Origin: an uncultured Methanosarcinales archaeon
GTDB lineage: Archaea > Nanobdellota > Nanobdellia > Woesearchaeales > JASKKU01
Assembly: GCA_964445165.1 (NCBI GenBank)
Contig: CAYUJZ010000001.1
Location: 1,591-65,590 of the forward strand
Direction: 5' to 3'
Length of the DNA stretch: 64,000 nucleotides
This document shows positions 947 through 36,316 of this stretch, piece by piece. Both the position numbers and the translations under genes were made by a program. Under the pieces are notes generated by a model. It saw only the letters and a list, made by a program, of their open reading frames with translations. It was not told where the DNA came from and did not search any database. Position 1 is the stretch's first letter, and each line of letters opens with the position of its first letter.

Positions 947-2044
947 TTATGTGCATTTCAGGCTTGAAATGTCGCAGGTGTAGCCAGAGCCGCACCCTGC
1001 TGAAGCACCGTGGTAAACTGCAAGTCCTTTCAGGTAGAAGTGGCTGTTGCTGTTCATAGAGACAAGGTAAGTTGCGCCGTTTTTTACCACAACGTCGTTG
1101 CCGGACTCGGAAGGAACGCTTGCTTCTTCCTGGATTGTGCCTGTGATATAGCAGTTGCTTGTGCTGAATGCGAACCTGTCGGTTGCGCCTTGCCTGACTA
1201 TTAAGGAATTTGAAAGCGAGCCAGGGGGTGCTGTGTTCTGGTTCATGGTGTTGCATTTGAACAAGGCATTACCGTTTTTGTCAATCAAAAGAACACCAGT
1301 GCCTGAAGTGAGTGTAATATTCAGATAAGGCGCCTCAAAGACCACGCCGCACATACCGCCGATTCTTCTCCAGTATCCGCTATCACATTGGTAGCTGCCT
1401 CTAGTAGTGCCATGATTATAGCAAGTGTTGTCATACACACACTTGTTAGCCTGGTTGCAGCAGGCATTGGTATCGCCTCCTGTACAGGAACCTGTGTCTC
1501 CTTCACAGTTAATTATATATTCGTTTGAGTCGTCTCCGCAACAGGTGTTGATATCACCACCAAGAGCCCACCTCCCAGAACCAACTGCACATGTACAAAA
1601 GTCCTGATTTGCATCCCAATTTACTGTGTAAACTGTAACACCATCGTTCGATGGGGAACCAAAATCCGGATCGTCCGAGATAACGTGCGCTGTGTAAGCA
1701 CCCTCTACATTACAGCAAGCAGAGTCGTAGCTATAGTCATCACAGGTTGCAGTTACCTCTGTTAACGAAGATGCTCCTTCTGTTGGGCAACTCGAATGGC
1801 TTACTATAGTATCCTGGTCGCTTGCAACTACTACACTGTTCGGGTTTCTTATTTCGACCCGCATGTAATAGCCTTCTGCAAACTGGGCTAGTGAAAAGAA
1901 AGAGAATAAAATTATTAAAAATATTGAAGAGGACCTGCAAAACAGTGGTTTTCTGCCTTTTAGAGGCGCTACAGCAAAAAAAAAGCAGCACCTAACAAAA
2001 AAAATAATACTTATGCCCATCAGGAAAAGCCAAAACATGCTCAA
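947..2044 (-). CDS. Cys-rich secreted/membrane-anchored protein of unknown function (about 40 Cys, repeated CCGDD / CC-N motifs, N-terminal hydrophobic segments)
   Basis: 365 aa ORF. The N-terminus has two hydrophobic stretches followed by a Cys/Gly/Asp/Asn/Thr-rich ectodomain with an N-x-T sequon. I recognise no family. Confidence 0.45.
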   Translation of the reverse strand: MSMFWLFLMGISIIFFVRCCFFFAVAPLKGRKPLFCRSSSIFLIILFSFFSLAQFAEGYYMRVEIRNPNSVVVASDQDTIVSHSSCPTEGASSLTEVTATCDDYSYDSACCNVEGAYTAHVISDDPDFGSPSNDGVTVYTVNWDANQDFCTCAVGSGRWALGGDINTCCGDDSNEYIINCEGDTGSCTGGDTNACCNQANKCVYDNTCYNHGTTRGSYQCDSGYWRRIGGMCGVVFEAPYLNITLTSGTGVLLIDKNGNALFKCNTMNQNTAPPGSLSNSLIVRQGATDRFAFSTSNCYITGTIQEEASVPSESGNDVVVKNGATYLVSMNSNSHFYLKGLAVYHGASAGCGSGYTCDISSLKCT

Positions 2045-2165: not shown

Positions 2166-2501
2166 ATGAAAAAACCGGGGAAGAATATGAAAAGCAGGTT
2201 GTCTGAGCTAATAAAAAGCCTTAGAATAACAAAGGAGAGCAGAGATATCCTATTAATGTTTATTATAATCCTTATAGTAATGGCTCTTCTTGAAACCATC
2301 AACCCAAGAGTAATTCAAACTGAATATGAGATAATTGACCCTGAATGCAGAATTGAGATTCTTGATAAGTTTCCGGTTGGAATGCAGGATATGCTGAAAA
2401 TACAAATCGACGGAGAGCAGAAGGTGTTTTTTGTTCCTGCTGACACTATCAGAAAAATGATTTATGTTGACTGTGAAGATGGCACTCTTGAACATTATTA
2501 A
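2166..2501 (+). CDS. small membrane protein, unknown function
   Basis: 111 aa ORF with a basic N-terminus, one hydrophobic helix (LLMFIIILIVMALL) and an acidic C-terminal domain. TATA-like tttaaaa lies about 27 nt upstream of the ATG. Confidence 0.35.
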   Translation: MKKPGKNMKSRLSELIKSLRITKESRDILLMFIIILIVMALLETINPRVIQTEYEIIDPECRIEILDKFPVGMQDMLKIQIDGEQKVFFVPADTIRKMIYVDCEDGTLEHY

Positions 2502-3642
2502 TGGACTTTGGTGGGCTTGCTTTATTTATCTTGGGCTTAAAACAAGCTTAAGCGACCTAAAGGACGGGAAAATCAAGAATAAGGATATAGCTTTAATGAT
2601 TGCTGCTTCGGTTGCTTTTTGTTTTGCCTGGAGCTTCTCTGCTTCTATTGAATTCGGAATCGGGTTTTTCAGCGTATTTGCAAGGTTTTTTTACCATCAG
2701 GCTATAAGCTTTATCCTTGGGATTTTGCTTGGCGTGGCCTTCTGGTTCCTTGGGCTTTGGCCCCCTGGTGACGCTAAGCTTTTCGCAGCTTACTGCTTTC
2801 TAATTCCGGTAGGAATGGTAAGGTATGGGCAGTTCCCTTTCTTCGTTAATTTTTTTATAAACATAACCGTGATCACGGCATTTGTAATCCTGCTTAAGAA
2901 AATAAAGAGATTCAGGTTCGAGAAATCAACATTTACATGGAAAGCCATGCTTATAACTCTTACTGGTGTCTTCTCCATAACCTGGATTATCGAAATAATT
3001 TCTAGGCTCTTCCAGATTGAGCTAGGCATGGTTGGATTCGTTTTCTTTATGTTTGCAATATTTGCCATTATGAATAAAGTGCTTAAAGTGTCTGCTTCGT
3101 ACTTTTTTATTGGAATCTCGCTCTTGAGGCTTCTTCTGGACTATCCTAACTATTTTGACTGGGGCACCCTTTTCAGTCTCTTTCAGCTCTGGTTTTTCCT
3201 TGTTGTCATCAGAATGGTTCTAGTTGACTTCAACTTCATAATAAACACCAAGAAAGTCAGAATAGAAGACCTAAAAGAGAATATGCTACTTGCTCAGGTT
3301 CCTGTGAAGGTAAAAGGTAAGGTCATAATGAAGCCCCGAAAACAGTTTGCTTTTTACCAGTATCTTATGACAAAATTCAATGTCGAGGATTCAGGAAAGC
3401 CTGTTTTTGATTATGACCCCACTTTCGGGCTCACTGCTGGCCAGATAAAACAGCTAAAGTCTTTAGCTGAAAGAAAAGGAATTCAGCACATCCTTGTCTT
3501 CAGAACCATCTTTTTTGCACCCATAATTTTCTTTGCCGCCATTGCGTCTATAATTGCAAGAGGAAGCATCTTTTATTTTTTCGGCTGGCATTTTGCCTTC
3601 CTTTTAGAGGCAATTGGAAATATCCTTAGGGTTATTTTTTAA
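2464..3642 (+). CDS. polytopic membrane protein, possible A24-family (prepilin/preflagellin) aspartyl peptidase with a C-terminal extension
   Basis: 392 aa with many TM helices. The motif LSDLKDGKIKN (first-Asp loop) and PPGDAKLFAAY resemble the D...K/R..IP and GGxD(V/A)KL catalytic motifs of FlaK/PibD-type peptidases. The start may be at an internal Met, since this ORF overlaps the previous one by 38 nt. Confidence 0.4.
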   Translation: MLTVKMALLNIINGLWWACFIYLGLKTSLSDLKDGKIKNKDIALMIAASVAFCFAWSFSASIEFGIGFFSVFARFFYHQAISFILGILLGVAFWFLGLWPPGDAKLFAAYCFLIPVGMVRYGQFPFFVNFFINITVITAFVILLKKIKRFRFEKSTFTWKAMLITLTGVFSITWIIEIISRLFQIELGMVGFVFFMFAIFAIMNKVLKVSASYFFIGISLLRLLLDYPNYFDWGTLFSLFQLWFFLVVIRMVLVDFNFIINTKKVRIEDLKENMLLAQVPVKVKGKVIMKPRKQFAFYQYLMTKFNVEDSGKPVFDYDPTFGLTAGQIKQLKSLAERKGIQHILVFRTIFFAPIIFFAAIASIIARGSIFYFFGWHFAFLLEAIGNILRVIF

Positions 3643-3734: not shown

Positions 3735-4331
3735 TTGGAAACTCAAAACAAGGCTTCTCTTAAGGCTGAAAAGAACGGACAAAAAACTATAATTGTTTGC
3801 AGAGAGCTATTCTCGCTGGCAACCGTGCTTGCATCTGCATATGAAATGCAGGAAGAAGCCTATTTTGACTTCAGGACAAAAAAGAATCAGATTGAGGTTT
3901 CCTTGGTTCATCTTAAGAAAAAAGAGGCAGAAAAAGAAGTTGTAGAGAAGAAATTTTTCAATAACCTTGTAAAGTTTTCATGGTATGAACTGAATCTGGC
4001 TAACAAGATAGCACTAAGGTGGCTTAACAACAAACAGTACTACTACTACTTTGACTATGCGCAAAGCCCAGAAGACTTTTTTGATGAGGAATATTTAAAC
4101 GGAAGCGAGAGAACACAACAAGAAGAGCCCAAAAAAGAAGATGTTTCAAATGAACAAGATACAGATATGGCTCCTTCGAGTCAAGATATAGAAACGCAAG
4201 AATCCAACAGGTATGACGATAATGCAGAGATTGATGACGTAGATGACTTCGATAAAATAATCATAGATGACCCTTCAGGCATTTCTGTTCCATGGGAGGT
4301 GAAGCATGGTGAAACAAGAAACAAAAAATGA
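3735..4331 (+). CDS. acidic hypothetical protein
   Basis: 198 aa ORF, D/E-rich, with no recognisable motif. Confidence 0.4.
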   Translation: METQNKASLKAEKNGQKTIIVCRELFSLATVLASAYEMQEEAYFDFRTKKNQIEVSLVHLKKKEAEKEVVEKKFFNNLVKFSWYELNLANKIALRWLNNKQYYYYFDYAQSPEDFFDEEYLNGSERTQQEEPKKEDVSNEQDTDMAPSSQDIETQESNRYDDNAEIDDVDDFDKIIIDDPSGISVPWEVKHGETRNKK

Positions 4332-4824
4332 GATTAAGCAAATTGAGAGGTTTGCAAACATAAAGATAATTGAAAAGCAGGGGAATGTTGTTTCCATAAT
4401 TGATATAGACGCCACGACCTTCCCCTTAAAGGTTATTCTTGCAGCGGTCTACACCAGCATTGAAAAAGCTGGGTTCATTGTTGATAAAAAAAATAAAAGC
4501 TATGTCATTGAAATCATGAAAACTAGTGCAAAGCCAAAAGAATTGCTTCAGCTTTCAAAGGAATTCCAGAACAGGCTGATAGACCATGCTTTTTACGAAT
4601 TGCAAACGATGAGGACTGCACCGCTTAATGACCTGCTTTTGCATGCAGTTGACTTTCCTTATGATTATGCAGAACAAAGCCTCAAAGAAGAGGAAACAGA
4701 GCAAGAACTAAAGCACATCCCTGACGAGGTTGACGAGAAAGAACTCGAAGAGGCATTTGGTGTGGAAGAGCTTGAAATTCCGTGGTCTGAAGAAGAGAAA
4801 AACGAAGGAGGTGAAAAAAGATGA
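4306..4824 (+). CDS. acidic hypothetical protein
   Basis: 172 aa ORF, overlaps the upstream ORF, E-rich C-terminus. Confidence 0.4.
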   Translation: MVKQETKNEIKQIERFANIKIIEKQGNVVSIIDIDATTFPLKVILAAVYTSIEKAGFIVDKKNKSYVIEIMKTSAKPKELLQLSKEFQNRLIDHAFYELQTMRTAPLNDLLLHAVDFPYDYAEQSLKEEETEQELKHIPDEVDEKELEEAFGVEELEIPWSEEEKNEGGEKR

Positions 4825-5126
4825 TAGAATACTCGCTTAAAAAAAACGCTGCTATCATTGAGTTTGAAGATTCTGTTTATCCCTATCCGATAATACTGGA
4901 AGCTGCCCACAACTTTCTGGAAGGCTGTTGGGTTACGCTTGAAAAGAAAGGCAAAAGGTACATTCTGGGAATTGAGTCAAAAGAAGACGATGAAGCTTCT
5001 GAAATAATCTCTGCTTTTTTCAATTTCATGAATGGGCTTATCTTCAGCAAAATTTCGGAAGAAGCCAACGATGATGAAAAAAACAAAGGCGAGGATGAGT
5101 GCAGACCGGAAAAGGAGGAATGTTAA
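4821..5126 (+). CDS. small hypothetical protein ending ...GEDECRPEKEEC, immediately upstream of the rSAM-SPASM gene
   Basis: 101 aa ORF. Its start overlaps the previous stop in an ATGA arrangement, and it is followed 27 nt later by the rSAM-SPASM ORF. Confidence 0.4.
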   Translation: MIEYSLKKNAAIIEFEDSVYPYPIILEAAHNFLEGCWVTLEKKGKRYILGIESKEDDEASEIISAFFNFMNGLIFSKISEEANDDEKNKGEDECRPEKEEC

Positions 5127-5153
5127 CCAAGCCAGATAAAAAGCGGTTGTTTT

Positions 5154-6581
5154 TTGAAGATGAAAAAAAAATATATCCTTGGAAGGGACTACAAAGAAAC
5201 TTTTTGCAGAGTTAAAGACTATGGGAAAAAGGGAAAGCTCATTATAAATGAGCTTGGCAAATGGCTTCTTCTGAGCAATGACGAATACAAAAGGTTTGTT
5301 TTCAAAGACTTTGACCAGGAGCTCTTCGAAAAGCTTGAGAAGAGCCTGCTCATAAAGACAAAAGCAAACTCAAAAGACATTCTTCATTTTTCAGGAAAAA
5401 TGTTTTGGGATATTACCAACGCGACAAGCCTCCATATCCTGGTGCCAACACTCAGGTGCAACCACACCTGTACCTACTGCTATGCTTTTAGAGAGCCTGA
5501 GGAAGCCAAAGGGTATGATATGAGTGAGGATACTGCAAAAAGAATTGTTGACTTCATTTTTCAGGCGCCTGCACCCAATATAGTTATTGAGTTTACGGGC
5601 GGAGAGCCCCTGCTTAAGCCAGACATTATCAGGTTCATTGTTGAATATGCAGAAGAAAAAAACAAAAAAGCACAGAAAAAACTAAGTTTTGCTCTCGTAA
5701 CAAATGGAACCTTGCTTGATGAGGGAATGTTTAAGTTTATCAAAGAACATAAAATAGGGCTTTGCTTTTCTCTGGATGGGCCAAAAGAAGTCCACGACAA
5801 GAATAGAAAATACACAAAATTCCCGGGAAAAAGCACATACGAAGATGTATACAGGCTGGTAAAAAAATACAAGATGAAAGAATACAAAGAGAGAACCTTT
5901 GCCCTTCCAGTCATAACAAAATCAGCTCTTCCCAAATATAAAAAGATAATTGACCTCTATGTCAGCTTGGGTTTCAAAAGCTTTAGATACAAGTACCTAA
6001 CCGACTTTGGCTTTGCCACATCAAACTGGAAGAATCTTTCTTACTCGCCGGAACAGTTTGTAAAAACTTGGAAGAATGTTGTTGAATATATCCTTGAGCT
6101 GAATAAAAAGGGCATCCAGATGAGAGAAGAAATTACAAGCATCTTCATTAGAAAGCTTATTTTGGGCGAAAATCCGGGCTTTGCAGAACTCGCTGTTCCT
6201 TGCGGGGCTGTTGACGGGCAGATTATTTATGATTACGATGGCGGGATTTACACCTGTGATGAGGCAAGAACGCTGGGAGACACCTTTAAGATTGGCAATG
6301 TTCACGATATTGACTACAAAGATATGAAGAACAACAAGATTAGAAAACTTATGAAAATCAATTCTGCCTTGTTTGGGTTTACTTGTGATGACTGCCCTTG
6401 GATTCCTTTTTGTGGCATATGTCCGCTTGAAAACTATAAAAAAGAGGGCACTATGGTAGTGAATATCCCTAAAAACAGCAGGTGCTACATTCACAAAAAC
6501 ATGATTGAATACCTTTTTGAGAAGGTTTTATTTGACAAGGAAGCTTCAGAGCTATTAAGAAAATGGCCAAAGATTAACTGA
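5154..6581 (+). CDS. radical SAM enzyme with a full C-terminal SPASM domain and a ~100 aa N-terminal extension (peptide-maturase-like architecture)
   Basis: CNHTCTYC is a CxxxCxxC motif and GGEPLL follows. The C-terminus reads C..GGIYTC(GX4C)...CDDCPWIPFCGICP...C, a 7-Cys SPASM pattern. Confidence 0.85.
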   Translation: MKMKKKYILGRDYKETFCRVKDYGKKGKLIINELGKWLLLSNDEYKRFVFKDFDQELFEKLEKSLLIKTKANSKDILHFSGKMFWDITNATSLHILVPTLRCNHTCTYCYAFREPEEAKGYDMSEDTAKRIVDFIFQAPAPNIVIEFTGGEPLLKPDIIRFIVEYAEEKNKKAQKKLSFALVTNGTLLDEGMFKFIKEHKIGLCFSLDGPKEVHDKNRKYTKFPGKSTYEDVYRLVKKYKMKEYKERTFALPVITKSALPKYKKIIDLYVSLGFKSFRYKYLTDFGFATSNWKNLSYSPEQFVKTWKNVVEYILELNKKGIQMREEITSIFIRKLILGENPGFAELAVPCGAVDGQIIYDYDGGIYTCDEARTLGDTFKIGNVHDIDYKDMKNNKIRKLMKINSALFGFTCDDCPWIPFCGICPLENYKKEGTMVVNIPKNSRCYIHKNMIEYLFEKVLFDKEASELLRKWPKIN

Positions 6582-6618: not shown

Positions 6619-7581
6619 ATGACAGAAAGAGTAGATGTCAAAACAGGGTACTACTGCAATAATTGGTGCAGGTTCTGCGTTCAGGCTCAAAACAGGAAAT
6701 ATGGTAATAGAACTACTCAGGAGATTAAGGATTCTCTTGCTGAAGCAAAGAAAGGAGGGGTAACCGGAGTAGTTTTCACAGGCGGCGAGTTCACAATAAG
6801 AAAAGATGCCCTTACCTTGATTAAATATGCGAAATCCATTGGCTATAATGATGTGATGCTACAGTCAAATGGGAGAATGTTCTCCAACAAGGATTATGTT
6901 AAAAAACTTATCTCTGCAGGTGCAAACCAATTTTCTCCTGCAATTCATGGCTCTTGCGCCGAAATACACGACTACCTTACGCGTGCCCCCGGCGCATGGA
7001 ATCAGGCAGTTAGAGGAATCAGGCTCCTCAGAAGCCTGGACCAAAATGTAATCATTAACTGTGTTGTTGTGAAGGCAAACATGAGAGACCTGCCAAACAT
7101 TGCAAAGCTGCTTGTAAGCCTGGATGTGAACCAGTTTCAGTTTGCATTTGTTCATATAATGGGAAATGCTTTTGAGAATAAGGAATCAATTGTGCCTATC
7201 GCAAGCACCACTTCTCTTTATATGAAAAAAGGGCTCATAATAGGAATAAATGCCAAGAAAAGAGTTATGGTTGAGGCAATGCCTTATTGCCTTATGAAGG
7301 GCTACGAAAGGTATGTCACTGAGCTGTACATTCCAGAGACAATGGTGAGAGAAAAGGACTTTTGGATAAAAGACTTCGAGAAAGTCAGAAGAACAGAAGG
7401 AAAAACGCTTTTCTCTCAGTGCAAAGAATGCAGGTTCAGGCTAATTTGCGAGGGTCCCTGGAGAGAATACCCTGAACTAATGGGAAAGGACGAATTCAAG
7501 CCTGTTCCCGGGGAAGTAATAAAAAACAAAAAAGAAATACTTGATAACTATGAGGATTTTCCTGTTGTTCCAACAGTGTAA
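6619..7581 (+). CDS. short radical SAM enzyme, twitch-like C-terminus (family member 1)
   Basis: CNNWCRFC motif at residues 13-20, TGGEFT, HG...H..LTR...W.QAV.GIRLL, and C-terminal CKECRFRLIC. Confidence 0.8.
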   Translation: MTERVDVKTGYYCNNWCRFCVQAQNRKYGNRTTQEIKDSLAEAKKGGVTGVVFTGGEFTIRKDALTLIKYAKSIGYNDVMLQSNGRMFSNKDYVKKLISAGANQFSPAIHGSCAEIHDYLTRAPGAWNQAVRGIRLLRSLDQNVIINCVVVKANMRDLPNIAKLLVSLDVNQFQFAFVHIMGNAFENKESIVPIASTTSLYMKKGLIIGINAKKRVMVEAMPYCLMKGYERYVTELYIPETMVREKDFWIKDFEKVRRTEGKTLFSQCKECRFRLICEGPWREYPELMGKDEFKPVPGEVIKNKKEILDNYEDFPVVPTV

Positions 7582-7595: not shown

Positions 7596-8729
7596 TTGCT
7601 AGGGGAGGAAAAAATGATACAAAAAAACGAGAATAATTCCCGGAAAGATACATCTCTGGCTATCGACAAAATAGCTCACCTGAGAAATCCCTTTCAACTG
7701 CTTTCAAGAATCGCCTTTTTAATAATAATCGCCTTAATCCTGTACATTGGCTTGAATAGAAGAAGCTTTGTGCTGATAATCATTGGGGGCGTCCTTGTTG
7801 CAACCTTCGCTCTTTTTTTGCTTAATGGCCTCATGACGAAAGTATCCTTAAGTGAACAAAAGATTTGCATCAGGACATTAACAGACAAACTGGAAATAAA
7901 AAAGAAAAACACCAGGAGAATTACAAGACTAATTCCAAAAAAAAAAAATACAAACTATAGGGAATACATTATTGAATATGAAGACGAAGAAGAAAACGAA
8001 GTAATCAAGAAGAGAATATATGGAATTTATGATTATGCAACTTTTGAAGATGCCTTGCGGGAATGGGATATTCCTATAACCAATGTTTCGAAAAGAAAAT
8101 ACAACAAAAAAACAGCTTATTTTTTTGCTGGTGCCTTTGTAATACTCTCTATCATTTTTATGCTTGCGTATTTTGGCGGAAATAATAAAAACCTCGGAGA
8201 GCCTTCTATTCCCGGCGGATTCTTAACTGATTCAGAAGATGCATCAGAGCTAAATCTTCATAAGCTGAGCGTCAGGATGCAGTCTGTAATAGAAGACTTA
8301 AATCAGGGGCATCTTTTCGAAGGGATTGAAAAACCTATTCAAGCAAGAAGAGTATTTCTAAGTTCAGATAAGCTAATGCTTTTTTCAACAGAAGAGCCTT
8401 ATCCCAGACTTGCAATCCTTTACCTATTCTCTGATACTACTCTCAACTTTTCAATCAGGCTTTGCTTTGATGAATTATGCAAGTATTATTCTGAATTTAG
8501 AATGAAGGCTTCAGACTTTAGCCATCCTCCAGCTTTCATTACTTCCGCGGATTCGCCTCTTGTAGACATTGAGCTTAAAACTTCAATAAATGATTTGAGG
8601 GGAACTGCCTTTTTATCTTTTGGGCTGGATAAAATAGAAGGACTGTGGATTGAAAGGGTTGAATTGATCGAAAACGAAGCGAGAAGAGAAGAACACGCAG
8701 CCTTTGATGTTAAGGAGGTAATAAGATGA
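7596..8729 (+). CDS. membrane protein of unknown function (3 TM); its C-terminal domain is paralogous to the next ORF
   Basis: 377 aa. The LMLFSTEE...LNFSIRLCFDELC segment resembles LFLFSSSRKED...VKLCFSESCDE in the 8726 ORF. A 12-nt poly-A tract lies in the coding sequence at 7937-7948. Confidence 0.5.
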   Translation: MLGEEKMIQKNENNSRKDTSLAIDKIAHLRNPFQLLSRIAFLIIIALILYIGLNRRSFVLIIIGGVLVATFALFLLNGLMTKVSLSEQKICIRTLTDKLEIKKKNTRRITRLIPKKKNTNYREYIIEYEDEEENEVIKKRIYGIYDYATFEDALREWDIPITNVSKRKYNKKTAYFFAGAFVILSIIFMLAYFGGNNKNLGEPSIPGGFLTDSEDASELNLHKLSVRMQSVIEDLNQGHLFEGIEKPIQARRVFLSSDKLMLFSTEEPYPRLAILYLFSDTTLNFSIRLCFDELCKYYSEFRMKASDFSHPPAFITSADSPLVDIELKTSINDLRGTAFLSFGLDKIEGLWIERVELIENEARREEHAAFDVKEVIR

Positions 8730-9217
8730 GCGAAGGTAGCCTGGAGCAAAACATCCCTGATATGGAAGAGGTAAGAGAACTCATATTGAGCAGGGCAATA
8801 TTTAAAGAGGTAAAAGAGGTTAGGCCCCTGAGGAAAGTTTACTTTTCAAACGAAAGCCTATTTTTGTTCTCATCTTCAAGAAAAGAAGACAAATTAAGCA
8901 TGATTTACAGAATTGCAAAAAATGAAGAAGCAAGTGTTAAGCTATGCTTTAGCGAAAGCTGTGATGAGAATACTACATTTATAATGAGCAGAGATGGATT
9001 ATCTGACGGGAAAGTCAAGACAAGCATTTCCTACATGAGCCCTCTAAGAGACTTCGTACTTGTGACATCTTCAGATGACGAGTTGAGGGTTTTTCTATTA
9101 AGCTTTGACAAAAAAAGCGTGGATAACAAAATGCTTTTCAAGATAATAGTTGAAGAAATAAAAGAAGATGGTGAAAAAACTAAAAAAGAGTACACTGTTG
9201 GAAAAAAAATAAAATAA
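8726..9217 (+). CDS. soluble hypothetical protein, paralogous to the C-terminal domain of the preceding ORF
   Basis: 163 aa with an ATGA overlap to the upstream ORF. Confidence 0.5.
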   Translation: MSEGSLEQNIPDMEEVRELILSRAIFKEVKEVRPLRKVYFSNESLFLFSSSRKEDKLSMIYRIAKNEEASVKLCFSESCDENTTFIMSRDGLSDGKVKTSISYMSPLRDFVLVTSSDDELRVFLLSFDKKSVDNKMLFKIIVEEIKEDGEKTKKEYTVGKKIK

Positions 9218-9226: not shown

Positions 9227-10897
9227 ATGACTGAAGAGCTAGTTAAAGTAAAGGGAATGGTTGTGCCTAAAAGCTTTAAGGATGAGATTTGTCCCAAGAT
9301 TACAGGAAAGCCTAATGCTGATTTTGTTGTATATAAGGGAGAGTATGCTCTTCTTTACCTGGATGACGACATAAGCTTCGATAGCCTGAAAGAAAAGCTG
9401 AGAAAAGTTGACTTTTCAAAGCTTAGAGAAAAGAAGACATTTATATTTCACAGAGGAGATAAAATATTCAGGACGGAGAAATACTTAACCTACCTGATGA
9501 TCTTCCTGGCAAAGGCAGGAATTGAATTTCAGGCTGTGGGAATTCCTTCGTGTTATTTGCAGGACAGGCTTTCAAGCTCATATGAAATAAAAGCCTTTAT
9601 GAAGGAGAATGAAACAGAGTTCGAAAATTACTTTTATTTTGAAGACTGCAAGGCCTGCAGGCTAAGATGTGCCTGTCCGGGCGCCCTTCAAAAGTACGCT
9701 GACCAGGTTTTTCCGGTTTTCTCTGATAAGAGAAAAGCCTTATCAAGCATAAGCCAGGAAATTAAGGCAAAACCAAAAGTAATCCTGAGCAAAATTGAAG
9801 ATTATGATGCCGCTCTTATTGAAAAACACATCGTTGAATCATTTGAAAAACTTGGCTTGCTGAGGCAAATAGGAAGTGAAACAAAAATTCTTATAAAGCC
9901 AAACTTAGCAGAGCCCTTCTCGCCTGAGAAGGCTGCAACGACTCATCCTGCAATTGTAGAAAGCATTATAATGCTTCTGATTAAGAAATGCAATCCAGAA
10001 AATATTTTTCTCGCGGATGTATCTGCCGGAACAAACTATAAAGAAAGCGAAAAAGCCTACAGCAATACAGGAATGCAGAAAATTGCCGATAATTACGGCA
10101 TCAAAATCATTCAATCGAAAGATATGCAATTCCTTTACAAGCAGTGTACCAACTCCTATTGGCTTGATGGCACAGATTACTTAACAATAATAAATGATGT
10201 CGATTTCATAATAAATGTTCCGAAATTCAAGACACATGGAATCTCGTTTTTTACTGGTGCGGTGAAAAACATTTTTGGGACAATCCATCCTGAAGAAAGA
10301 AAATTCATACACGCAAGGGAAGATAAGGAAGAATTTTGCAAGGGGCTTGTTGACTGCTTCTCCGGCATAGCGCATAAGGTTGCTGTTAACGTAATAGATG
10401 CGATTATTGGCATGGAAGGCGACGAAGGCCCAAGCTACGGAAATCCAAAAAAAATTGGAGCGTTGATAATTTCAAGAGATCCTGTTGCTGCTGATGCAAC
10501 TGCGTGCAGGCTAGTTGGATACAACCCCGAGGCAATGCCCACAATTAAGTTAGGCAAAGAAAAGCTTCTGGGAGAATTTGAAGAAAAAGAAATTGACATC
10601 AGCAAAGACGTCAGTAGCATGCAGGTTAAGGACTTCAAGAAGAACTCGCTTTTTGATTTTATTAACAAGCACAAGAAAGAGAAGGGCTTCGGAAAGACTT
10701 TTCTTTATAATGTAAAAATTACCGAAAAATGCGTTAAATGCGGCTCCTGCTTCCATTCCTGCCCTGTGAAAGCTATCGATATTGATGAAAACGGAAAATA
10801 TTACATCAACCAGCACAACTGCATAAGGTGCTACACCTGCCATGAATGCTGCCCAAACCACGCAATAGAACTAATCAAAATAAAAAACCCTGACTAA
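9227..10897 (+). CDS. DUF362-like domain protein with two C-terminal 4Fe-4S ferredoxin motifs and an N-terminal CKACRLRCACPG cluster
   Basis: C-terminal CVKCGSCFHSCP and CIRCYTCHECCP (2x CxxCxxCxxxCP). The central region (KILIKPNLAEP...THPAIVESII) looks DUF362-like. Confidence 0.55.
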   Translation: MTEELVKVKGMVVPKSFKDEICPKITGKPNADFVVYKGEYALLYLDDDISFDSLKEKLRKVDFSKLREKKTFIFHRGDKIFRTEKYLTYLMIFLAKAGIEFQAVGIPSCYLQDRLSSSYEIKAFMKENETEFENYFYFEDCKACRLRCACPGALQKYADQVFPVFSDKRKALSSISQEIKAKPKVILSKIEDYDAALIEKHIVESFEKLGLLRQIGSETKILIKPNLAEPFSPEKAATTHPAIVESIIMLLIKKCNPENIFLADVSAGTNYKESEKAYSNTGMQKIADNYGIKIIQSKDMQFLYKQCTNSYWLDGTDYLTIINDVDFIINVPKFKTHGISFFTGAVKNIFGTIHPEERKFIHAREDKEEFCKGLVDCFSGIAHKVAVNVIDAIIGMEGDEGPSYGNPKKIGALIISRDPVAADATACRLVGYNPEAMPTIKLGKEKLLGEFEEKEIDISKDVSSMQVKDFKKNSLFDFINKHKKEKGFGKTFLYNVKITEKCVKCGSCFHSCPVKAIDIDENGKYYINQHNCIRCYTCHECCPNHAIELIKIKNPD

Positions 10898-14179: not shown

Positions 14180-15271
14180 ATGGAAAAAATCCCTATAGCA
14201 ATGCCGGACATTGACGAGAATGATATTAAGGCTGTTTCCAGTTGCCTTAGGTCTAGACAGATTGCTGCCGGAAAAATAACCGAAGAATTCGAGAAATTGT
14301 TTGCAAAAGAGATTGGCGTAAAGTGCTGCTTGGCTGTGAACAGCGGCACTACTGCCTTGAGAATAGCTCTCAGGTCGCTTAAACTGAGTAAAGGCTCAGA
14401 GGTGATTATTCCTGACATGTCTTTTGCCGCAACCGCCCATGCTGTATCCCTTGAGGGACTTATTCCTATTTTTTGTGACATCAAGCCTGATGGAAACATT
14501 GATGAAAGCTTAATTGAAAAAAGAATCACGCCCAAAACAAAAGCGGTTCTTGTTGTTCACCTGCACGGAATTTGCGCAAAGATTGATATGATATCAGAGA
14601 TTTGCAGGAAAAACGGGCTTTTTCTTGTTGAAGACTGCGCTCAGGCCTTTGGGTCAAATATTAATGAAAACATGGCTGGCTCTTTTGGAGATGTTTCTGC
14701 ATTCAGCTTATATGCTACAAAGAACATTGCAACAGGAGAGGGGGGAGTGGTTTGCTTTAATCATGCTGAAGATGAAGGCAAGGCTCTTAGATGGGTAAAC
14801 AACGGAAGAGAGAATGGAGAGGAGATTCTTTCCTTGGGAGACAATTTAAGGCTAAGCAATATTAATGCTTCACTTGGCATATCCCAGCTAAAGAAGCATA
14901 AAAAGATGCTAAATAAGAGGAAGGTAATTGCTGAGATATACAACAGTGAATTTTCTCGGTTAAACAGCATAATTCTGCCACCTTATTCTGGAAAATACGG
15001 GAATGCCTATCATCATTATAACCTTATCTTCAAGAGAGGAGTGGATTTTAATGAAGCGCTTGAATTTTTTGGCTCTGAAGGAATTTCGATTAAAAGGTAC
15101 TACCCTTATACCCTTTCGGAATGCGCTCCTTTTAGGAGAAAGCCTCTTAAAACTTCTGGCTTTATCTCAAAAAATTCATTTTGCATCCCAATCTTTTCCT
15201 CTATGAAAGAATCTGATGCAAAAAGAGTTGCTAAAGCTGTGAAAGATTTTGTGCGGAGGCGAGAAAAGTGA
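14180..15271 (+). CDS. DegT/DnrJ/EryC1/StrS-family PLP-dependent sugar aminotransferase
   Basis: AVNSGTTALRIAL and SLYATKNIATGEGG (PLP-Lys context) at family-typical spacing. Confidence 0.85.
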   Translation: MEKIPIAMPDIDENDIKAVSSCLRSRQIAAGKITEEFEKLFAKEIGVKCCLAVNSGTTALRIALRSLKLSKGSEVIIPDMSFAATAHAVSLEGLIPIFCDIKPDGNIDESLIEKRITPKTKAVLVVHLHGICAKIDMISEICRKNGLFLVEDCAQAFGSNINENMAGSFGDVSAFSLYATKNIATGEGGVVCFNHAEDEGKALRWVNNGRENGEEILSLGDNLRLSNINASLGISQLKKHKKMLNKRKVIAEIYNSEFSRLNSIILPPYSGKYGNAYHHYNLIFKRGVDFNEALEFFGSEGISIKRYYPYTLSECAPFRRKPLKTSGFISKNSFCIPIFSSMKESDAKRVAKAVKDFVRRREK

Positions 15272-29986: not shown

Positions 29987-30361
29987 CTAAACCATCCTCT
30001 TGACCAGCTCGTTCATCTTGTCTTTCCTGTAGCCAAGGGCTCCGCCCCTGCTGAACGGCTTCTTGACTCCTTTTCTCTCAAATCCCTTTACCGGCGGGGA
30101 AAGGAAAAACACGCTGCTCTTGCTTCCTGAGCCGGCATTCCTGTCTTTTCTCTTTTCTGAGAGAAGCTTAAAGGTCTCTTCGCTGATCTCGCCAAAAGTC
30201 GCGTAATCCTTAACCCTTTCGAGCATTCCCATCACAGAAGGAGTCTTCTCAAAAACGGAGCATGCCATCTTCTTCCTAAGGTTTAGCTTATCCAAGGTAT
30301 CCTTTATCCTGATATCTGCCCCTATCCTTGACCTGATTAAAACAACTGCTATTCTTTCCAT
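29987..30361 (-). CDS. rpl30: ribosomal protein L30 (uL30/L7Ae-unrelated L7e type)
   Basis: MERIAVVLIRSRIGADIRIKDTL... The ORF-track start at 30445 is probably too far upstream, and I prefer the internal Met at 30361. Confidence 0.8.
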   Translation of the reverse strand: MERIAVVLIRSRIGADIRIKDTLDKLNLRKKMACSVFEKTPSVMGMLERVKDYATFGEISEETFKLLSEKRKDRNAGSGSKSSVFFLSPPVKGFERKGVKKPFSRGGALGYRKDKMNELVKRMV

Positions 30362-30362
30362 T

Positions 30363-31571
30363 TTACTCAGCCTTCGCTGCTTCTTCTGCCTGCCCTGCTT
30401 CTTCAAGCTCGGGCTGCTCGGGCTTTTCTTTTGGCACCGAGCCATCTATTATGCCGAGCGAACTGACATAAGCATAATCATTAACCTTGATTGCAGAGAG
30501 CTGGTAAAGCGCTTTCTCAACTGCCTTAACAAGGTTAAACTTGTTCCTGGCAAGGCCAGATGCATTAACCCAGATGTCTTTTATCCCGGCCTTATCGAGT
30601 ATTTTCTTCACCTCTTTCTCTGCAACAATTCCATTGCCTTTTGGCGCTGGCAGAAGCGTTACCTCTACAGAGCTGCTCTTTCCGTACACCTTAAACGGAA
30701 TCGAGTGGGGCTCCTTGCAGCCGCATTCCCATGAGCCGCAGCCCCTCTTAATTTTAATAACATTAACCTTGGCCTGCTTTGTTGCCTTTTCCCTTGCAGG
30801 CACTGTATCTTTTGACTTGCCGAATCCTATGCCGACATGGCCGTCGCTGTCACCTACAACCGCAACCGTGGCAAACCTCGGCTTGTTTCCTTCAGCAGTC
30901 TTTTTCTGTGTCTGCTTGAAAACCCTTCTCTTTCCGCCACCGAACTTTCCCTTTGCCTGCCCTGTAAGCAGAAGCTCAGAATCCAGCTCCGGCAGCAGGA
31001 TTTCCACTATCTCAGGTTCAAGGATTCTCAGGCCTTTTGAAAGGATATCATCAAGATTGGTTATCTCCTTGCTCTTTACCTTTTTCCCAAGGGTTGTCCT
31101 GGGTGTCCAGTCATCAAAAGAAGCAAGCCTGTCCCGTGGCTTGGCTTTTTCCGGCTTTGTCACTGTTTCTTCGTCTTCCTTAAATTCATCGAGGACTTCT
31201 TTTGGGAGCGGGCTTGCGTTTTCATCAGCATTGTCATCTGTCTCATCATCAGTTTTTTCTGCTGTCTCTTCCTCAGGCTCAGCTTTGTTTCCCTTTTTTT
31301 TCTTTTCTTCTTTTGCTTCTTCAGGCTTGGGCTCTGCCTCAGGCTTCTGTTCCGGCTTTTTCTCAGGCTCCGAGCCTTTTTCCTGCTTCTGCGCTTTGGG
31401 CTTGGCTGCCTTGTTTTCTTTTTCCACTTTCTTTGCCTTCTCCGCTTTCTCTTGCTTTTGAGCCTCTGCAGCTTTCTGCTGGGATTTCGGCTCTTCAGCA
31501 GCAACCGGTTCCTGCCCTGCTGCTGCCTCTGGCTGCTCCTTCTTGGCCTCTGCAGGCTTTTTTGCTAACAT
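30363..31571 (-). CDS. rps5: ribosomal protein S5 (uS5) with a ~190 aa K/E/A/P-rich N-terminal low-complexity extension and an acidic C-terminal tail
   Basis: The conserved core runs LASFDDWTPRT...GKFGGGKRRVF...VAVVGDSDGHVGIGFGKSKD...LLPAPKGNGIVA. Archaeal S5 is normally about 210-240 aa, and this one is 402 aa. Confidence 0.85.
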   Translation of the reverse strand: MLAKKPAEAKKEQPEAAAGQEPVAAEEPKSQQKAAEAQKQEKAEKAKKVEKENKAAKPKAQKQEKGSEPEKKPEQKPEAEPKPEEAKEEKKKKGNKAEPEEETAEKTDDETDDNADENASPLPKEVLDEFKEDEETVTKPEKAKPRDRLASFDDWTPRTTLGKKVKSKEITNLDDILSKGLRILEPEIVEILLPELDSELLLTGQAKGKFGGGKRRVFKQTQKKTAEGNKPRFATVAVVGDSDGHVGIGFGKSKDTVPAREKATKQAKVNVIKIKRGCGSWECGCKEPHSIPFKVYGKSSSVEVTLLPAPKGNGIVAEKEVKKILDKAGIKDIWVNASGLARNKFNLVKAVEKALYQLSAIKVNDYAYVSSLGIIDGSVPKEKPEQPELEEAGQAEEAAKAE

Positions 31572-32200
31572 TAAAGATCACCTTTTAAGATTGAGTTTTT
31601 GGCTTTTTCAAAGCCTTTTGTGATGTCTAAAGGGGAAATCTTCTTTGAAAGATATCCTGAGAACTGCTTTTTGTACTGCTCCGGGCTTTCCTTCTCGAGC
31701 TTCTGTGCATAGCTTTCTATGTGCTTTCCTGAAAGCCTGTCCTCAGGAGGGTAAACGCCTTCTCCGTGCGAAACTGAAAGCTCTGCATCAACCAGGCCTT
31801 TCAGAAACGCTGACTCAACAGAGCCCTTGAAGAATGGCCTAATGCCAAAGTCTAAAATGAACCCGTCCTTAAACTGGTTGAAGTCTTTTGCCTGCTTTAG
31901 CTTCTTTCCAAAAAACAAGCCGAAGAGATAGGCTGCTGGAATGCTGTTCTTCGAGTAATCCCAGCCAAGCTTAGGCAGGACTTTTGAGCTCATGCCATAA
32001 AGAACCTTATCTCCCTTTGCATCAAACCTTACTACCTGTGCACTAAGGCTCTTGCTTCCTCTCTTAAAAACAATCCTAGCTTTTCCTGACTTAAGGAGGT
32101 TTAGCCTCTTCCTGTAGTCAGTCTTGCCTTCCCTTTTCCTTCTAAACGGTAAAACTATTGCCATTTTAACCTTTCTTATCTGCTTTCTCTTTTTTTTCAA
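31571..32200 (-). CDS. rpl18: ribosomal protein L18 (uL18/L5e)
   Basis: RKREGKTDYRKRLNLLKSGKARIVFKRGSKSLSAQVV. Confidence 0.85.
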   Translation of the reverse strand: MKKKRKQIRKVKMAIVLPFRRKREGKTDYRKRLNLLKSGKARIVFKRGSKSLSAQVVRFDAKGDKVLYGMSSKVLPKLGWDYSKNSIPAAYLFGLFFGKKLKQAKDFNQFKDGFILDFGIRPFFKGSVESAFLKGLVDAELSVSHGEGVYPPEDRLSGKHIESYAQKLEKESPEQYKKQFSGYLSKKISPLDITKGFEKAKNSILKGDL

Positions 32201-32639
32201 AAAGCTCCTTCTCGGACATGAAGTACTTCAAGTGCCTCAGGCTCCTGAAAAACCCGCTTTTTGCCCTTCTGTACAGCTCTCGATAATTGCTATCTGAAAC
32301 AAGCTTTTTCAGCTTAACTTCTTTAAGGAACTGCCTTTGCTTCCTTATTTTTGACATCCAAGTTTCCTTCTTTGACTGCCTGGCGCCTGCTGTGCCTTTT
32401 CTAGAGCCATGGCCTTTCCTGTGGCCTTTTTTCTTTTTTTCCTGGAGCTCTTTTGACCTTGAATTTGAGATTCCCCTGGCCGGTAGCTTGATAATCGCTC
32501 CCTTATGAATAAGTATCTTGATGTCTTCTCTTGTGATTGCCTCTTTAATCTCATCCAGGGAAGCCTCATCCAGCGAAACCCTGCTCGGAGAGCACTTCAT
32601 AATGTCTGCCGCAATCCGTTTTTTGATTTTGAGATTCAT
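32166..32639 (-). CDS. rpl19e: ribosomal protein L19e (eL19)
   Basis: MNLKIKKRIAADIMKCSPSRV...KGHRKGHGSRKGTAGAR. Confidence 0.85.
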   Translation of the reverse strand: MNLKIKKRIAADIMKCSPSRVSLDEASLDEIKEAITREDIKILIHKGAIIKLPARGISNSRSKELQEKKKKGHRKGHGSRKGTAGARQSKKETWMSKIRKQRQFLKEVKLKKLVSDSNYRELYRRAKSGFFRSLRHLKYFMSEKELFEKKEKADKKG

Positions 32640-32659
32640 TTAAATCACATTACCTGCTT

Positions 32660-33316: not shown

Positions 33317-33326
33317 GATTATCTCC

Positions 33327-33875: not shown

Positions 33876-33894
33876 TTTGGTTTGTTTAAAGCAG

Positions 33895-34290
33895 TCAGTA
33901 GCAGTAAGCTATCAGCCTTCCTCCGGTGTTCTTTTCCAGTGCCTCCTTGTGTGTCATAATGCCCTGGGGTGTTGAAACAACAATGATTCCAAAGCCATGC
34001 GCAGGAAGGTATCTTTTCTCAACATTCGTGTAGTCTGTGCTTCTGACAGATATTCTTGGCCTGATGGATGCGCACTTGTTAATGTGCCCGAGCAGGCTCA
34101 CTCTTATATGCCTGCCTTTAGAGGTCTGCTCGATGCCAAAGCCTCCAATGTACTTGTTATCCTGGAGGAGCTCAAGTACCTTAAGCAGCATGTTTGAAAC
34201 ATACTGAATCTCACACTCTTTCTTGTTTTCTTTCTCGTATGTGTACAATTTTGATAATGCGTTTGAAACTAAGTCTGTCATCATTAACAC
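33895..34290 (-). CDS. rps8: ribosomal protein S8 (uS8)
   Basis: TDLVSNALSKLYTYEKENKKECEI...GFGIIVVSTPQGIMTHKEA. Confidence 0.85.
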   Translation of the reverse strand: MLMMTDLVSNALSKLYTYEKENKKECEIQYVSNMLLKVLELLQDNKYIGGFGIEQTSKGRHIRVSLLGHINKCASIRPRISVRSTDYTNVEKRYLPAHGFGIIVVSTPQGIMTHKEALEKNTGGRLIAYCY

Positions 34291-34292
34291 CT

Positions 34293-34535: not shown

Positions 34536-34536
34536 C

Positions 34537-36305: not shown

Positions 36306-36316
36306 CACAATCACTC

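What the first reader, a model, noticed from the sequence alone, without database searches (positions are those of the whole stretch)
4821..6581. rSAM-SPASM enzyme with a ~100 aa N-terminal extension, preceded by a small protein ending in ...DECRPEKEEC
The 5154 ORF has a complete 7-Cys SPASM signature (C..GX4C...CX2CX5CX2C...C). It also has about 100 residues ahead of the CxxxCxxC motif, which is where RiPP maturases carry a peptide-recognition (RRE) domain. The gene 27 nt upstream encodes a 101 aa protein whose last 10 residues contain two Cys, a possible thioether or sactionine substrate site. The three acidic ORFs at 3735-5126 are translationally linked.
Basis: inference. Interest (0 to 1): 0.5.

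Follow-up and report, generated by a model that had tools for sequence, protein, structure and literature searches.

The report
Archaeal Hxs radical-SAM cassette lacking HxsA
This is a variant, in a tiny DPANN archaeon, of the known His-Xaa-Ser (Hxs) radical-SAM protein-maturation system: the "small precursor" is really an HxsD-family helper protein with an unusual cysteine-bearing acidic tail, and the usual His-Xaa-Ser substrate is missing.

Summary

The 101 aa upstream protein is not a free-standing precursor peptide. It is the short HxsD-like subunit (NF038315-type). Residues 1-85 form a confidently folded alpha/beta core and the last ~16 residues are poorly modelled (pLDDT 52-70). The two ORFs before it are long HxsD paralogs.

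The cysteine-bearing acidic tail occurs only in the four closest orthologs. 92 of 99 short HxsD proteins elsewhere have no tail of 15 aa or more.

The window lies in a Woesearchaeota-type HxsB subclade. In that subclade:
- a short HxsC-like radical SAM enzyme follows HxsB;
- HxsA, the His-Xaa-Ser repeat substrate, is usually absent nearby and is absent from all 64 kb here;
- cysteine clusters recur in HxsD-family acidic tails.

The substrate and the chemistry remain unknown. I class this as a new variant of a known kind, of moderate interest.

The parts
2166..2501 (+). Small membrane protein 'p111' (111 aa). It has a charged N-terminus, one TM helix, and a ~70 aa C-terminal domain with two conserved Cys. 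Its gene overlaps the next gene by 38 nt. It is a speculative candidate substrate of the peptidase.
   Evidence: Orthologs occur only in L001-L003. The HxsA-leader HMM gives no match.
2464..3642 (+). Divergent A24-type (prepilin/preflagellin-like) membrane aspartic peptidase.
   Evidence: Weak Pfam Arc_PepC hit. 43 HxsB-linked homologs keep D31, N39, G102-D103-x-K105 and P115 in 91-98% of sequences, and the gene usually lies directly upstream of HxsD. Precomputed Peptidase_A24 hits exist in relatives.
3735..4331 (+). HxsD paralog 1 (long form, 198 aa). It has an HxsD core, an acidic linker and a C-terminal docking-like motif, DDPSGISVPWEVKHG.
   Evidence: TIGR03976 E 5.8e-8, sub-threshold. Pfam HxsD weak hit. 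Tail motif shared with 60 long HxsD proteins.
4306..4824 (+). HxsD paralog 2 (long form, 172 aa). It has an HxsD core and an acidic tail with a degenerate motif, ELEIPWSEEEK.
   Evidence: TIGR03976 E 5.7e-8. Pfam PF27806 HxsD..
4821..5126 (+). Short HxsD-like subunit (HxsD_rel, 101 aa). It has a folded beta-beta-alpha-beta-beta-alpha core (residues 1-85) and a clade-specific acidic tail.
   Evidence: NF038315 E 1.5e-7. AF2 pLDDT 88, with the core above 90. Alignment with 95 short HxsD proteins.
5061..5123 (+). Acidic tail of the short HxsD (residues 81-101, EANDDEKNKGEDECRPEKEEC), modelled at low confidence from about residue 86, with C94 and C101.
   Evidence: pLDDT 52-70. The tail is present only in WIN/L001, P0122, L002 and L003.
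5154..6581 (+). HxsB, a radical SAM/SPASM maturase. The likely start is the ATG at 5160.
   Evidence: TIGR03978 426 bits, cutoff 370. CteB 5wgg E 3e-46. 1464 homologs, many named HxsB in DPANN archaea.
5154..5444 (+). RRE-like N-terminal domain of HxsB (residues 1-97).
5457..5480 (+). CX3CX2C radical SAM cluster motif (C102, C106, C109).
   Evidence: Invariant in 42/42 homologs.
6201..6485 (+). SPASM region with 7 Cys (C350, C368, C411, C414, C420, C423, C444).
   Evidence: Pfam SPASM hit is sub-threshold, E 0.0035.
6619..7581 (+). Short HxsC-like radical SAM enzyme (320 aa). CX3CX2C sits at residues 13-20, so there is no N-terminal domain. The C-terminus carries a CX2CX5C-x-G motif.
   Evidence: The best NCBIfam hits are HxsC4 (135 bits, cutoff 500) and HxsC (91.6, cutoff 268), both below cutoff. 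The gene is conserved directly after HxsB in 10 of 12 subclade members.
7596..8729 (+). Polytopic or anchored membrane protein (377 aa) at the position where HxsA sits in canonical systems. The C-terminal domain carries LCFDELC.
   Evidence: Positional equivalents of 348-376 aa occur in L163 and L165 but are not detectably homologous.
8726..9217 (+). Soluble paralog (163 aa) of the C-terminal domain of the preceding protein.
   Evidence: BLASTP E 1e-9, 29% identity. jackhmmer.
9227..10897 (+). DUF362 protein with a 2x[4Fe-4S] ferredoxin domain. It is a probable electron-transfer partner. Its N-terminus shares the CX2CX5C-x-G motif with the HxsC-like C-terminus.
   Evidence: Pfam DUF362 E 3e-47 plus Fer4 families. 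Syntenic in L002, L003, L163 and L165. Motif similarity E 7e-5. A radical SAM-DUF362 fusion occurs in L168.

Best explanation
The region is a chromosomal, Woesearchaeota-type variant of the His-Xaa-Ser (Hxs) radical-SAM protein-maturation cassette.

Gene order: small membrane protein, A24-like aspartic peptidase, HxsD (long), HxsD (long), HxsD-like (short), HxsB, short HxsC-like radical SAM enzyme, membrane protein, its soluble paralog, DUF362-ferredoxin.

Shown:
- The family assignments.
- The RRE-rSAM-SPASM architecture of HxsB.
- The folded HxsD core of the 101 aa protein.
- The absence of any His-Xaa-Ser repeat protein in the 64 kb window.
- Conservation of this gene order in relatives.

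Inferred mechanism:
- The HxsD-family proteins act as adaptors or chaperones. In E. coli, HxsD binds HxsC and is needed for HxsA processing. Here they probably form long/short heteromers, and their acidic tails and PWE-K-G end motifs probably dock to the enzymes.
- HxsB uses its RRE-like domain to hold a peptide segment. Together with the HxsC-like enzyme it carries out radical chemistry on a protein substrate. Electrons would come from the DUF362-ferredoxin protein.
- The A24-like peptidase removes an N-terminal leader from a membrane-anchored product.

On this reading the 101 aa protein is an accessory subunit. Its Cys-bearing tail is a lineage-specific add-on of unresolved role. The true substrate is either encoded elsewhere in the genome (an HxsA-type protein) or is one of the neighbouring membrane proteins.
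For: - HxsB assignment: TIGR03978 426 bits against a cutoff of 370, aligned over residues 25-471. Homologs in DPANN archaea are named HxsB.
- HxsD assignment: all three upstream ORFs hit HxsD or HxsD_rel models and Pfam HxsD.
- Typical layout: 150 of 167 HxsB loci have HxsD-like ORFs upstream. The usual pattern is one long form (~150 aa) plus one short form (~78 aa).
- D3 aligns end to end with 95 short HxsD proteins, which end right after the last helix.
- The HxsB N-terminus is RRE-like.
- Gene order is conserved in L002 and L003 (65% HxsB identity), in L163 and L165 (52-55%), and in its core (HxsD, short HxsD, HxsB, HxsC-like) in L167-L172 (43-48%).
- The A24-like catalytic motifs are conserved.
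- A radical SAM-DUF362 fusion in L168 links DUF362 to the system.
- PMC13128918 reports that HxsB, HxsC and HxsD are all required for HxsA maturation in E. coli, and that HxsC binds HxsD.
Against: - No substrate is identified. There is no HxS repeat in any frame of the window. The HxsA-leader HMM finds nothing in the first 20 kb of the window, in L001-L003, L163, L165 or L166.
- The HxsC-like enzyme and the three HxsD-like proteins all score below NCBIfam's curated cutoffs. They are divergent members at best.
- The roles of adaptor, electron donor and leader peptidase are inferred from family context only.
- The tail Cys are retained in four orthologs. Similar Cys clusters recur in HxsD tails across the subclade. 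This argues that the tail is not a neutral appendage and could be more than an accessory feature.
Confidence: 0.65

Rival explanations
1. Substrate in cis. In this HxsA-poor subclade the Cys-bearing acidic tail of an HxsD-family protein is itself the substrate. Here that is the 101 aa protein. The folded HxsD core would serve as a built-in recognition scaffold. HxsB and/or the HxsC-like enzyme would install a thioether or similar cross-link between a Cys and a neighbouring Asp, Glu or other residue.
For: - The tail Cys are kept in all four close orthologs: EDECRPEKEEC, EDDCECEDESKKEC, DPECNCDDC...GCSQ and DPNCDCEDC...GCM.
- Elsewhere in the same HxsB subclade, Cys clusters sit in the acidic linker of the long HxsD instead: CDC..CC, CDC...C, CEC, CEEC, CPTC, CETC.
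- 9 of 12 subclade members have such Cys, and 10 of 12 lack HxsA within the fetched flanks.
- Across all loci, a Cys cluster is found in 8 of 14 loci with the HxsC-like gene directly after HxsB, against 3 of 106 others.
- HxsB's nearest characterised relatives by sequence are thioether-forming enzymes: CteB E 3e-46, and the PapB family as second-best NCBIfam hit.
Against: - The association reflects essentially one clade. It is not significant within that clade (p 0.19).
- L168 has both a Cys cluster and two genuine HxsA genes 4 kb away, so the cluster is not simply a replacement for HxsA.
- L169, L004 and L083 have neither a cluster nor HxsA nearby.
- The window tail has only two Cys, spaced differently (C-x6-C) from its orthologs.
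- No modification was or could be observed here.
- The chemistry of HxsB is unknown even in E. coli.
Confidence: 0.15
2. The tail Cys form a metal site (Zn or Fe/Fe-S knuckle). This site would stabilise HxsD oligomers or contact the short HxsC-like enzyme. It would not be a site of radical chemistry.
For: - Several subclade tails carry classic knuckle-like motifs: CPTCG in L170, CIPCG in L012, CPTC in L025, CETC in L172. L007 carries a full zinc-ribbon-like insert, CTDCGC...CKDC...CPSC.
- L002 and L003 tails have four Cys, enough for a Cys4 site.
- The Cys clusters track the short HxsC-like gene (8/14 vs 3/106) more closely than they track the absence of HxsA (8/35 vs 3/85).
- The HxsD core resembles dimerisation modules.
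Against: - The window protein has only two tail Cys and P0122 has three, so a site would need to form across subunits.
- The tails are extremely acidic and are modelled at low confidence, which suggests disorder.
- There is no metal-binding family hit.
Confidence: 0.25
3. The substrate is one of the adjacent membrane proteins. One candidate is the 377 aa protein at the HxsA position, with its 163 aa paralog. The other is the 111 aa protein whose gene is coupled to the A24-like peptidase gene.
For: - The 377 aa protein occupies the slot after HxsC where HxsA lies in the canonical D-B-C-A order.
- Proteins of similar size and topology follow the HxsC-like gene in L163 and L165.
- p111 has a charged N-terminus followed by a TM helix, like DPANN HxsA. 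Its gene overlaps the peptidase gene in the window, L002 and L003.
Against: - Neither matches the HxsA leader profile; scores are about 0 bits.
- Both are restricted to the closest relatives.
- L167 and L170 have the D-D-B-C core with no such neighbours.
- The Cys in the 163 aa paralog are not conserved in its orthologs.
Confidence: 0.2

Closest known systems
E. coli HXS antiphage system, HxsD-HxsB-HxsC-HxsA (PMC13128918; NCBIfam TIGR03976-03979)
   Same: - HxsB is a member of the same equivalog family, scoring above the cutoff.
- One or more HxsD-family small proteins lie directly upstream.
- A second radical SAM enzyme lies directly downstream.
- The gene order is D-B-C.
   Different: - The host is an archaeon (DPANN).
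- There are three HxsD-family genes, with long acidic tails.
- The second radical SAM enzyme is short. Its cluster motif is at residue 13 rather than about 105, and it scores far below the HxsC cutoff.
- There is no HxsA, and no peptidoglycan-binding effector.
- An A24-like peptidase and a DUF362-ferredoxin are added.
- No evidence for or against an antiviral role was obtained here.
DPANN/CPR/Myxococcota-type Hxs loci (NCBIfam HxsD_rel NF038315, HxsA3/HxsA4 NF038309/NF038313, HxsC4 NF038332)
   Same: - An A24-like peptidase in many loci.
- A long HxsD with a DDPxGIAVPWEEKYGK end motif.
- A short HxsD-like protein.
- HxsB with the same RRE-like N-terminus.
   Different: - Those loci usually carry a membrane-anchored HxsA (conserved leader, TM helix, HxS repeats) next to HxsB. 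That was seen in 89 of 167 loci. The window has none.
- The long HxsD is duplicated here.
- The short HxsD carries a Cys-bearing tail, which is otherwise absent.
SCIFF/ranthipeptide and sactipeptide maturases (CteB, PapB, TigE, SuiB)
   Same: - RRE, radical SAM and SPASM domain order.
- Best solved-structure match by sequence is CteB (E 3e-46).
- The N-terminal model superposes on RRE domains of this class.
   Different: - Those enzymes act on short leader-core peptides encoded nearby.
- Here the adjacent small protein is a folded 85-residue domain of another family.
- NCBIfam scores to PapB, CteB and SCIFF models are far below cutoffs (170 vs 340; 111 vs 425).

Membership tests
His-Xaa-Ser (Hxs) system | HxsB radical SAM/SPASM maturase (TIGR03978) | tested here: met
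   426.1 bits against a cutoff of 370, E 1.7e-127, full-length alignment.
His-Xaa-Ser (Hxs) system | HxsD small protein (TIGR03976 / NF038315 / Pfam PF27806) adjacent to HxsB | tested here: inconclusive
   All three upstream ORFs hit the models at E 1e-7 to 4e-4, but below the curated cutoffs (33 vs 50; 31.5 vs 41). Precomputed Pfam HxsD hits exist for the 172 aa ORF, a weak one for the 198 aa ORF, and one for the D3 ortholog P0122. jackhmmer unites them with about 250 HxsB-adjacent ORFs. They are most likely true but divergent members.
His-Xaa-Ser (Hxs) system | HxsC, the paired second radical SAM enzyme (TIGR03977 or HxsC4 NF038332) | tested here: not met
   91.6 bits against a cutoff of 267.9, and 135 bits against a cutoff of 500. 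The enzyme is related, in the right position, but lacks the N-terminal domain.
His-Xaa-Ser (Hxs) system | HxsA substrate with His-Xaa-Ser repeats | tested here: not met
   No ORF segment in any of six frames of the 64 kb window has a convincing HxS cluster; the single segment with 3 HxS in 40 aa is spurious. The leader HMM, built from 97 HxsA-like proteins, has no hit in the first 20 kb of the window or in the closest relatives. The rest of the genome was not available.
RRE-dependent radical SAM/SPASM RiPP maturases | CX3CX2C motif plus a 7-Cys SPASM auxiliary-cluster motif | tested here: met
   Positions 102-109 and 350-444, conserved in homologs.
RRE-dependent radical SAM/SPASM RiPP maturases | N-terminal PqqD-like RRE (beta-sheet followed by three helices) | tested here: met
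   - AF2 pLDDT 82, with strands at 11-40 and helices at 42-49, 55-63 and 73-89.
- Sequence profiles alone give no hit: Pfam PqqD is absent, and the PDB profile search gives E > 0.2.
- This is fold-level evidence from a model only.
RRE-dependent radical SAM/SPASM RiPP maturases | Adjacent short precursor peptide with a leader and a variable Cys-containing core | tested here: not met
   The 101 aa protein is a folded HxsD-family domain plus a 16-20 residue tail. No other small Cys-rich ORF was seen next to the enzyme.
A24 aspartic peptidases (prepilin/preflagellin peptidase type) | Two catalytic Asp, the second in a G-x-G-D-like motif, in a polytopic membrane protein | tested here: inconclusive
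   D31 and G102-D103-x-K105 are 91-98% conserved in 43 homologs. Arc_PepC scores 22.7 bits against a cutoff of 23.4, and there is no Peptidase_A24 hit for the window protein. Weak Peptidase_A24 hits exist for relatives.

The most novel reading that the evidence does not exclude
In a Woesearchaeota subclade of Hxs systems, the substrate may have moved onto the helper protein. On this reading a Cys-rich acidic tail fused to an HxsD-family scaffold is cross-linked by HxsB and/or the short HxsC-like enzyme. That would be a scaffold-tethered, RiPP-like modification that does not need a separate HxsA precursor.
Probability: 0.15. Interest if true: 0.75.

Novelty: new variant of a known kind. Interest (0 to 1): 0.45.

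Why it matters
The Hxs system was only recently shown to be an antiphage defence in E. coli, and its radical chemistry is still unknown. That study surveyed bacteria only and found the system almost entirely in Pseudomonadota.

The data here add three things:
- HxsB systems are widespread in DPANN archaea and CPR bacteria, with a different layout: an A24-like peptidase, two HxsD paralogs and a membrane-anchored HxsA.
- One Woesearchaeota subclade, which includes this window, pairs HxsB with a short HxsC-like enzyme and a DUF362-ferredoxin, and usually has no HxsA nearby.
- In that subclade the HxsD-family tails carry cysteine clusters.

This gives a concrete, testable lead on what HxsD proteins do and what HxsB recognises. 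It also points to radical-SAM-rich islands in organisms with very small genomes.

It does not overturn any current view. The core enzyme would be named correctly by standard annotation.

Tried and rejected
1. Exact-sequence lookup of the window HxsB (starts at 5154 and 5160) found nothing. The 100% identical P0001 then gave contig L001.
2. A single-sequence scan of genome contigs found no relatives. The alignment-based scan did.
3. I tested whether p111 or the 377 aa protein carry a diverged HxsA leader, which had looked plausible by eye. Two profile searches gave scores near 0 bits. Rejected.
It was redone with database hits.
6. The PADLOC library has no Hxs models. It gave only generic radical SAM (viperin) and ferredoxin (BrxP) cross-hits, so the defence role could not be assessed.
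7. Rfam found only a tRNA.
8. The global association between Cys clusters and absence of HxsA (p 6e-4; p 0.002) turned out to be largely one clade. It is contradicted by L168, which has both. I do not treat it as independent evidence.
9. The 1.84-billion representative search was not used. No remaining question seemed answerable by it.
Full report
**Observation**

The + strand from 2166 to about 16600 carries a tight gene array.
- ORF 5154-6581 (475 aa) has CX3CX2C at residues 102-109. It also has seven SPASM cysteines (C350, C368, C411, C414, C420, C423, C444). Six of these are conserved in 41-42 of 42 homologs and the last in 34 of 42.
- ORF 4821-5126 encodes 101 aa ending EDECRPEKEEC.
- The three ORFs at 3735-5126 overlap by 26 and 4 nt and are acidic, with pI 4.4-4.7.
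- Public gene calls on an identical ENA contig give the same genes, with HxsB starting at the ATG at 5160.

**What the genes are**

- NCBIfam places the enzyme in HxsB, the His-Xaa-Ser system radical SAM maturase. TIGR03978 scores 426 bits against a cutoff of 370, aligned over residues 25-471, so the N-terminal extension is part of the family.
- The three acidic ORFs all hit HxsD (TIGR03976) or HxsD-like (NF038315) models at E 1e-7 to 4e-4, below the curated cutoffs.
- Precomputed Pfam PF27806 (HxsD) hits exist for the 172 aa ORF, weakly for the 198 aa ORF, and for the closest ortholog of the 101 aa ORF.
- The next gene, 6619-7581, is a 320 aa radical SAM enzyme. Its best matches are HxsC4 (135 bits, cutoff 500) and HxsC (92 bits, cutoff 268).
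- After it come a 377 aa membrane protein, then a 163 aa paralog of that protein's C-terminal domain, then a DUF362 protein with a two-cluster ferredoxin domain.
- Upstream lie a 111 aa single-TM protein and a divergent A24-type membrane peptidase.
- Homologs of the enzyme are named HxsB in Woesearchaeota, Pacearchaeota, Aenigmarchaeota and Iainarchaeota. The 86% identical one is from a Woesearchaeota MAG.
- The rest of the window carries a ribosomal protein operon, tRNAs, ThiI and SRP54, which is chromosomal core.

**The known system**

In E. coli the HXS system (order HxsD-HxsB-HxsC-HxsA) is an antiphage defence. HxsB, HxsC and HxsD are all needed to process HxsA, which carries HxS repeats, and to modify it by +8 Da. 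HxsC binds HxsD. The chemistry is unresolved. The authors' survey covered bacteria only and was 99.7% Pseudomonadota (PMC13128918).

**Comparative survey**

I fetched 172 loci in all, most around HxsB relatives from genomes and metagenomes, and the rest by exact-protein lookups of closer relatives. The counts in this section cover the 167 sequences held at the time: 166 loci plus the first 20 kb of the window.
- The common layout in DPANN, CPR, Myxococcota and other lineages starts with an A24-like peptidase, although this is not present in every locus.
- Next comes a long HxsD of about 150 aa. It has a core, an acidic linker and a strongly conserved end motif, DDP[LE]GIA[VI]PWEEKYGK.
- Next comes a short HxsD-like protein of about 78 aa, followed by HxsB.
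- Last comes HxsA. It has a conserved leader (LPKIKKxIxxFLxxEEGxISK), a TM helix and HxS repeats.
- One DPANN HxsA scores above the NCBIfam HxsA4 cutoff.
- 89 of the 167 sequences have an HxS-repeat protein.
- The A24-like proteins keep D31, N39, G102-D103-x-K105 and P115 in 91-98% of 43 sequences.

**The 101 aa protein**

- It aligns over its first ~80 residues with 95 short HxsD proteins. Those proteins nearly all stop right after the last helix: 92 of 99 have no tail of 15 aa or more.
- A database search with the family profile found 248 members. The listed ones are almost all 65-80 aa, and several are named HxsD-like protein by NCBI.
- AF2 gives a beta-beta-alpha-beta-beta-alpha core with pLDDT above 90, and a low-confidence tail (pLDDT 52-70).
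- It is therefore the short HxsD subunit, not a leader-core peptide.

Its tail is found only in the four closest orthologs:
- window: EDECRPEKEEC
- P0122: EDDCECEDESKKEC
- L002: DPECNCDDCKKERERREREGCSQ
- L003: DPNCDCEDCQNERKRRELSGCM

The first Cys and a near-terminal Cys persist. The number of Cys and the rest of the sequence vary.

**The N-terminal extension of HxsB**

- It is conserved across 42 homologs (G35, W37, L40, L57, L61, T69, N72).
- Pfam PqqD does not hit it, and a PDB profile search with the domain alone is not significant.
- The full-length profile aligns to CteB from residue 42 onward, which reaches into CteB's N-terminal domain.
- An AF2 model of residues 1-97 (pLDDT 82) has a small sheet followed by three helices.
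- The RRE reading is supported at fold level, from a model.

**The missing substrate and the Cys clusters**

- The window has no convincing HxS cluster in any frame.
- The HxsA leader profile finds nothing in the first 20 kb of the window or in L001-L003, L163, L165 and L166. The same profile finds none in L167, L169 or L170. L172 gives only a weak low-complexity match (E 7e-4) that I discount.
- Neither p111 nor the 377 aa protein resembles the leader.
- In an NJ tree of HxsB, the window falls in a monophyletic 12-member subclade with 43-65% identity to it.
- In that subclade, 10 of 12 members have the short HxsC-like gene directly after HxsB.
- 10 of 12 lack HxsA in the fetched flanks.
- 9 of 12 have a Cys pair or cluster in an HxsD-family tail. 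These are in the short HxsD for the window's closest relatives, and in the long HxsD linker elsewhere: TCDCVSEDECCE, PCDCEIQNCDED, SCEEKSSCEC, ECEEC, KCPTCG, ECETC.
- Across all loci, Cys clusters occur in 8 of 14 loci with the HxsC-like gene directly downstream, against 3 of 106 others (p 5e-7). This mostly reflects one clade.
- Within the clade, the link to HxsA absence is not significant (p 0.19).
- L168 has a Cys cluster and also two genuine HxsA genes 4 kb upstream. L171 has an HxsA 1.6 kb downstream. A trans-encoded HxsA in the window's genome therefore cannot be excluded.
- Some clusters look like zinc knuckles: CPTCG, CIPCG, and a ribbon-like insert in L007.

**Most likely mechanism**

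- The cassette is an Hxs-type protein-maturation machine.
- The HxsD paralogs act as adaptors, probably as heteromers with docking tails.
- HxsB uses its RRE-like domain and its SPASM clusters, and works together with the HxsC-like enzyme.
- The DUF362-ferredoxin supplies electrons. It is syntenic in five relatives, it shares a CX2CX5C-x-G motif with the HxsC-like C-terminus, and it is fused to a radical SAM domain in L168.
- The A24-like peptidase processes a membrane-anchored product.

Family identities and architecture are shown. All functional roles are inferred. Three points stay open: whether the Cys tail is a substrate (about 0.15), a metal site (about 0.25), or neither.

**Verdict**

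The upstream "precursor" is in fact an HxsD-family subunit of a named system. This is a new variant of a known kind: archaeal, HxsA-less locally, with three HxsD genes, a Cys-bearing tail, a short HxsC-like enzyme and a DUF362-ferredoxin. It is of moderate interest.

Noticed in passing
window 5154-29439: This is a radical-SAM island. Ten ORFs have Pfam Radical_SAM hits: 5154, 6619, 15268, 18434(-, B12), 19876(-, B12), 21347(-), 23290(-), 24852(-), 27414(-) and 28498. They are interspersed with four large polytopic membrane proteins that have no Pfam hit and with a DegT aminotransferase (14180-15271). Relatives also carry PMT_2, GT2, carbamoyltransferase and further radical SAM genes beside the HxsB module. 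This is striking for a small-genome DPANN archaeon.
   Followed up: partly
window 4230-4331 and 4750-4824; loci L006-L166: Long HxsD proteins from archaea, CPR and Myxococcota end in a strongly conserved short motif, DDP[LE]GIA[VI]PWEEKYGK, after an acidic linker. 60 of 154 tails contain PW. In the window the motif is DDPSGISVPWEVKHG in one paralog and ELEIPWSEEEK in the other. It looks like a docking peptide, and may be the ligand of the HxsB RRE.
   Followed up: partly
window 2464-3642 and 43 related loci: A divergent A24-like membrane peptidase with conserved D...GD-x-K motifs sits directly upstream of HxsD in many archaeal loci and in some Clostridia loci. It is a candidate for the unidentified protease that removes the HxsA leader.
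   Followed up: partly
L084 4495-5004; L049, L069, L071, L080; L022, L039, L076, L077, L082: HxsA proteins vary. One has C-T-H-S-S-C repeats in place of plain HxS. Many end in GGWC or in HSSY. Some have only one or two HxS units after the conserved leader.
   Followed up: no
window 9227-9800 vs 7330-7500; L168 3270-5063: The N-terminal part of the DUF362-ferredoxin protein shares a CX2CX5C-x-G segment with the C-terminus of the HxsC-like enzyme (E 7e-5). In L168 a radical SAM domain is fused to DUF362.
   Followed up: partly
window 947-2044 (-): A 365 aa Cys-rich ORF with an N-terminal hydrophobic segment and no Pfam hit. It is possibly a secreted or surface protein.
   Followed up: no
window 44923-48792 (-): A 1289 aa ORF with no Pfam match.
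   Followed up: no
window 30000-42500: The strong negative GC and AT skew and higher G+C here coincide with a minus-strand ribosomal protein operon (S5, L3). This is not a foreign element.
   Followed up: yes
window 42638-42710: ARAGORN calls a tRNA-Pro(GGG) here that did not reach the Rfam tRNA gathering score. Only the tRNA-Arg at 43579-43653 did.
   Followed up: no
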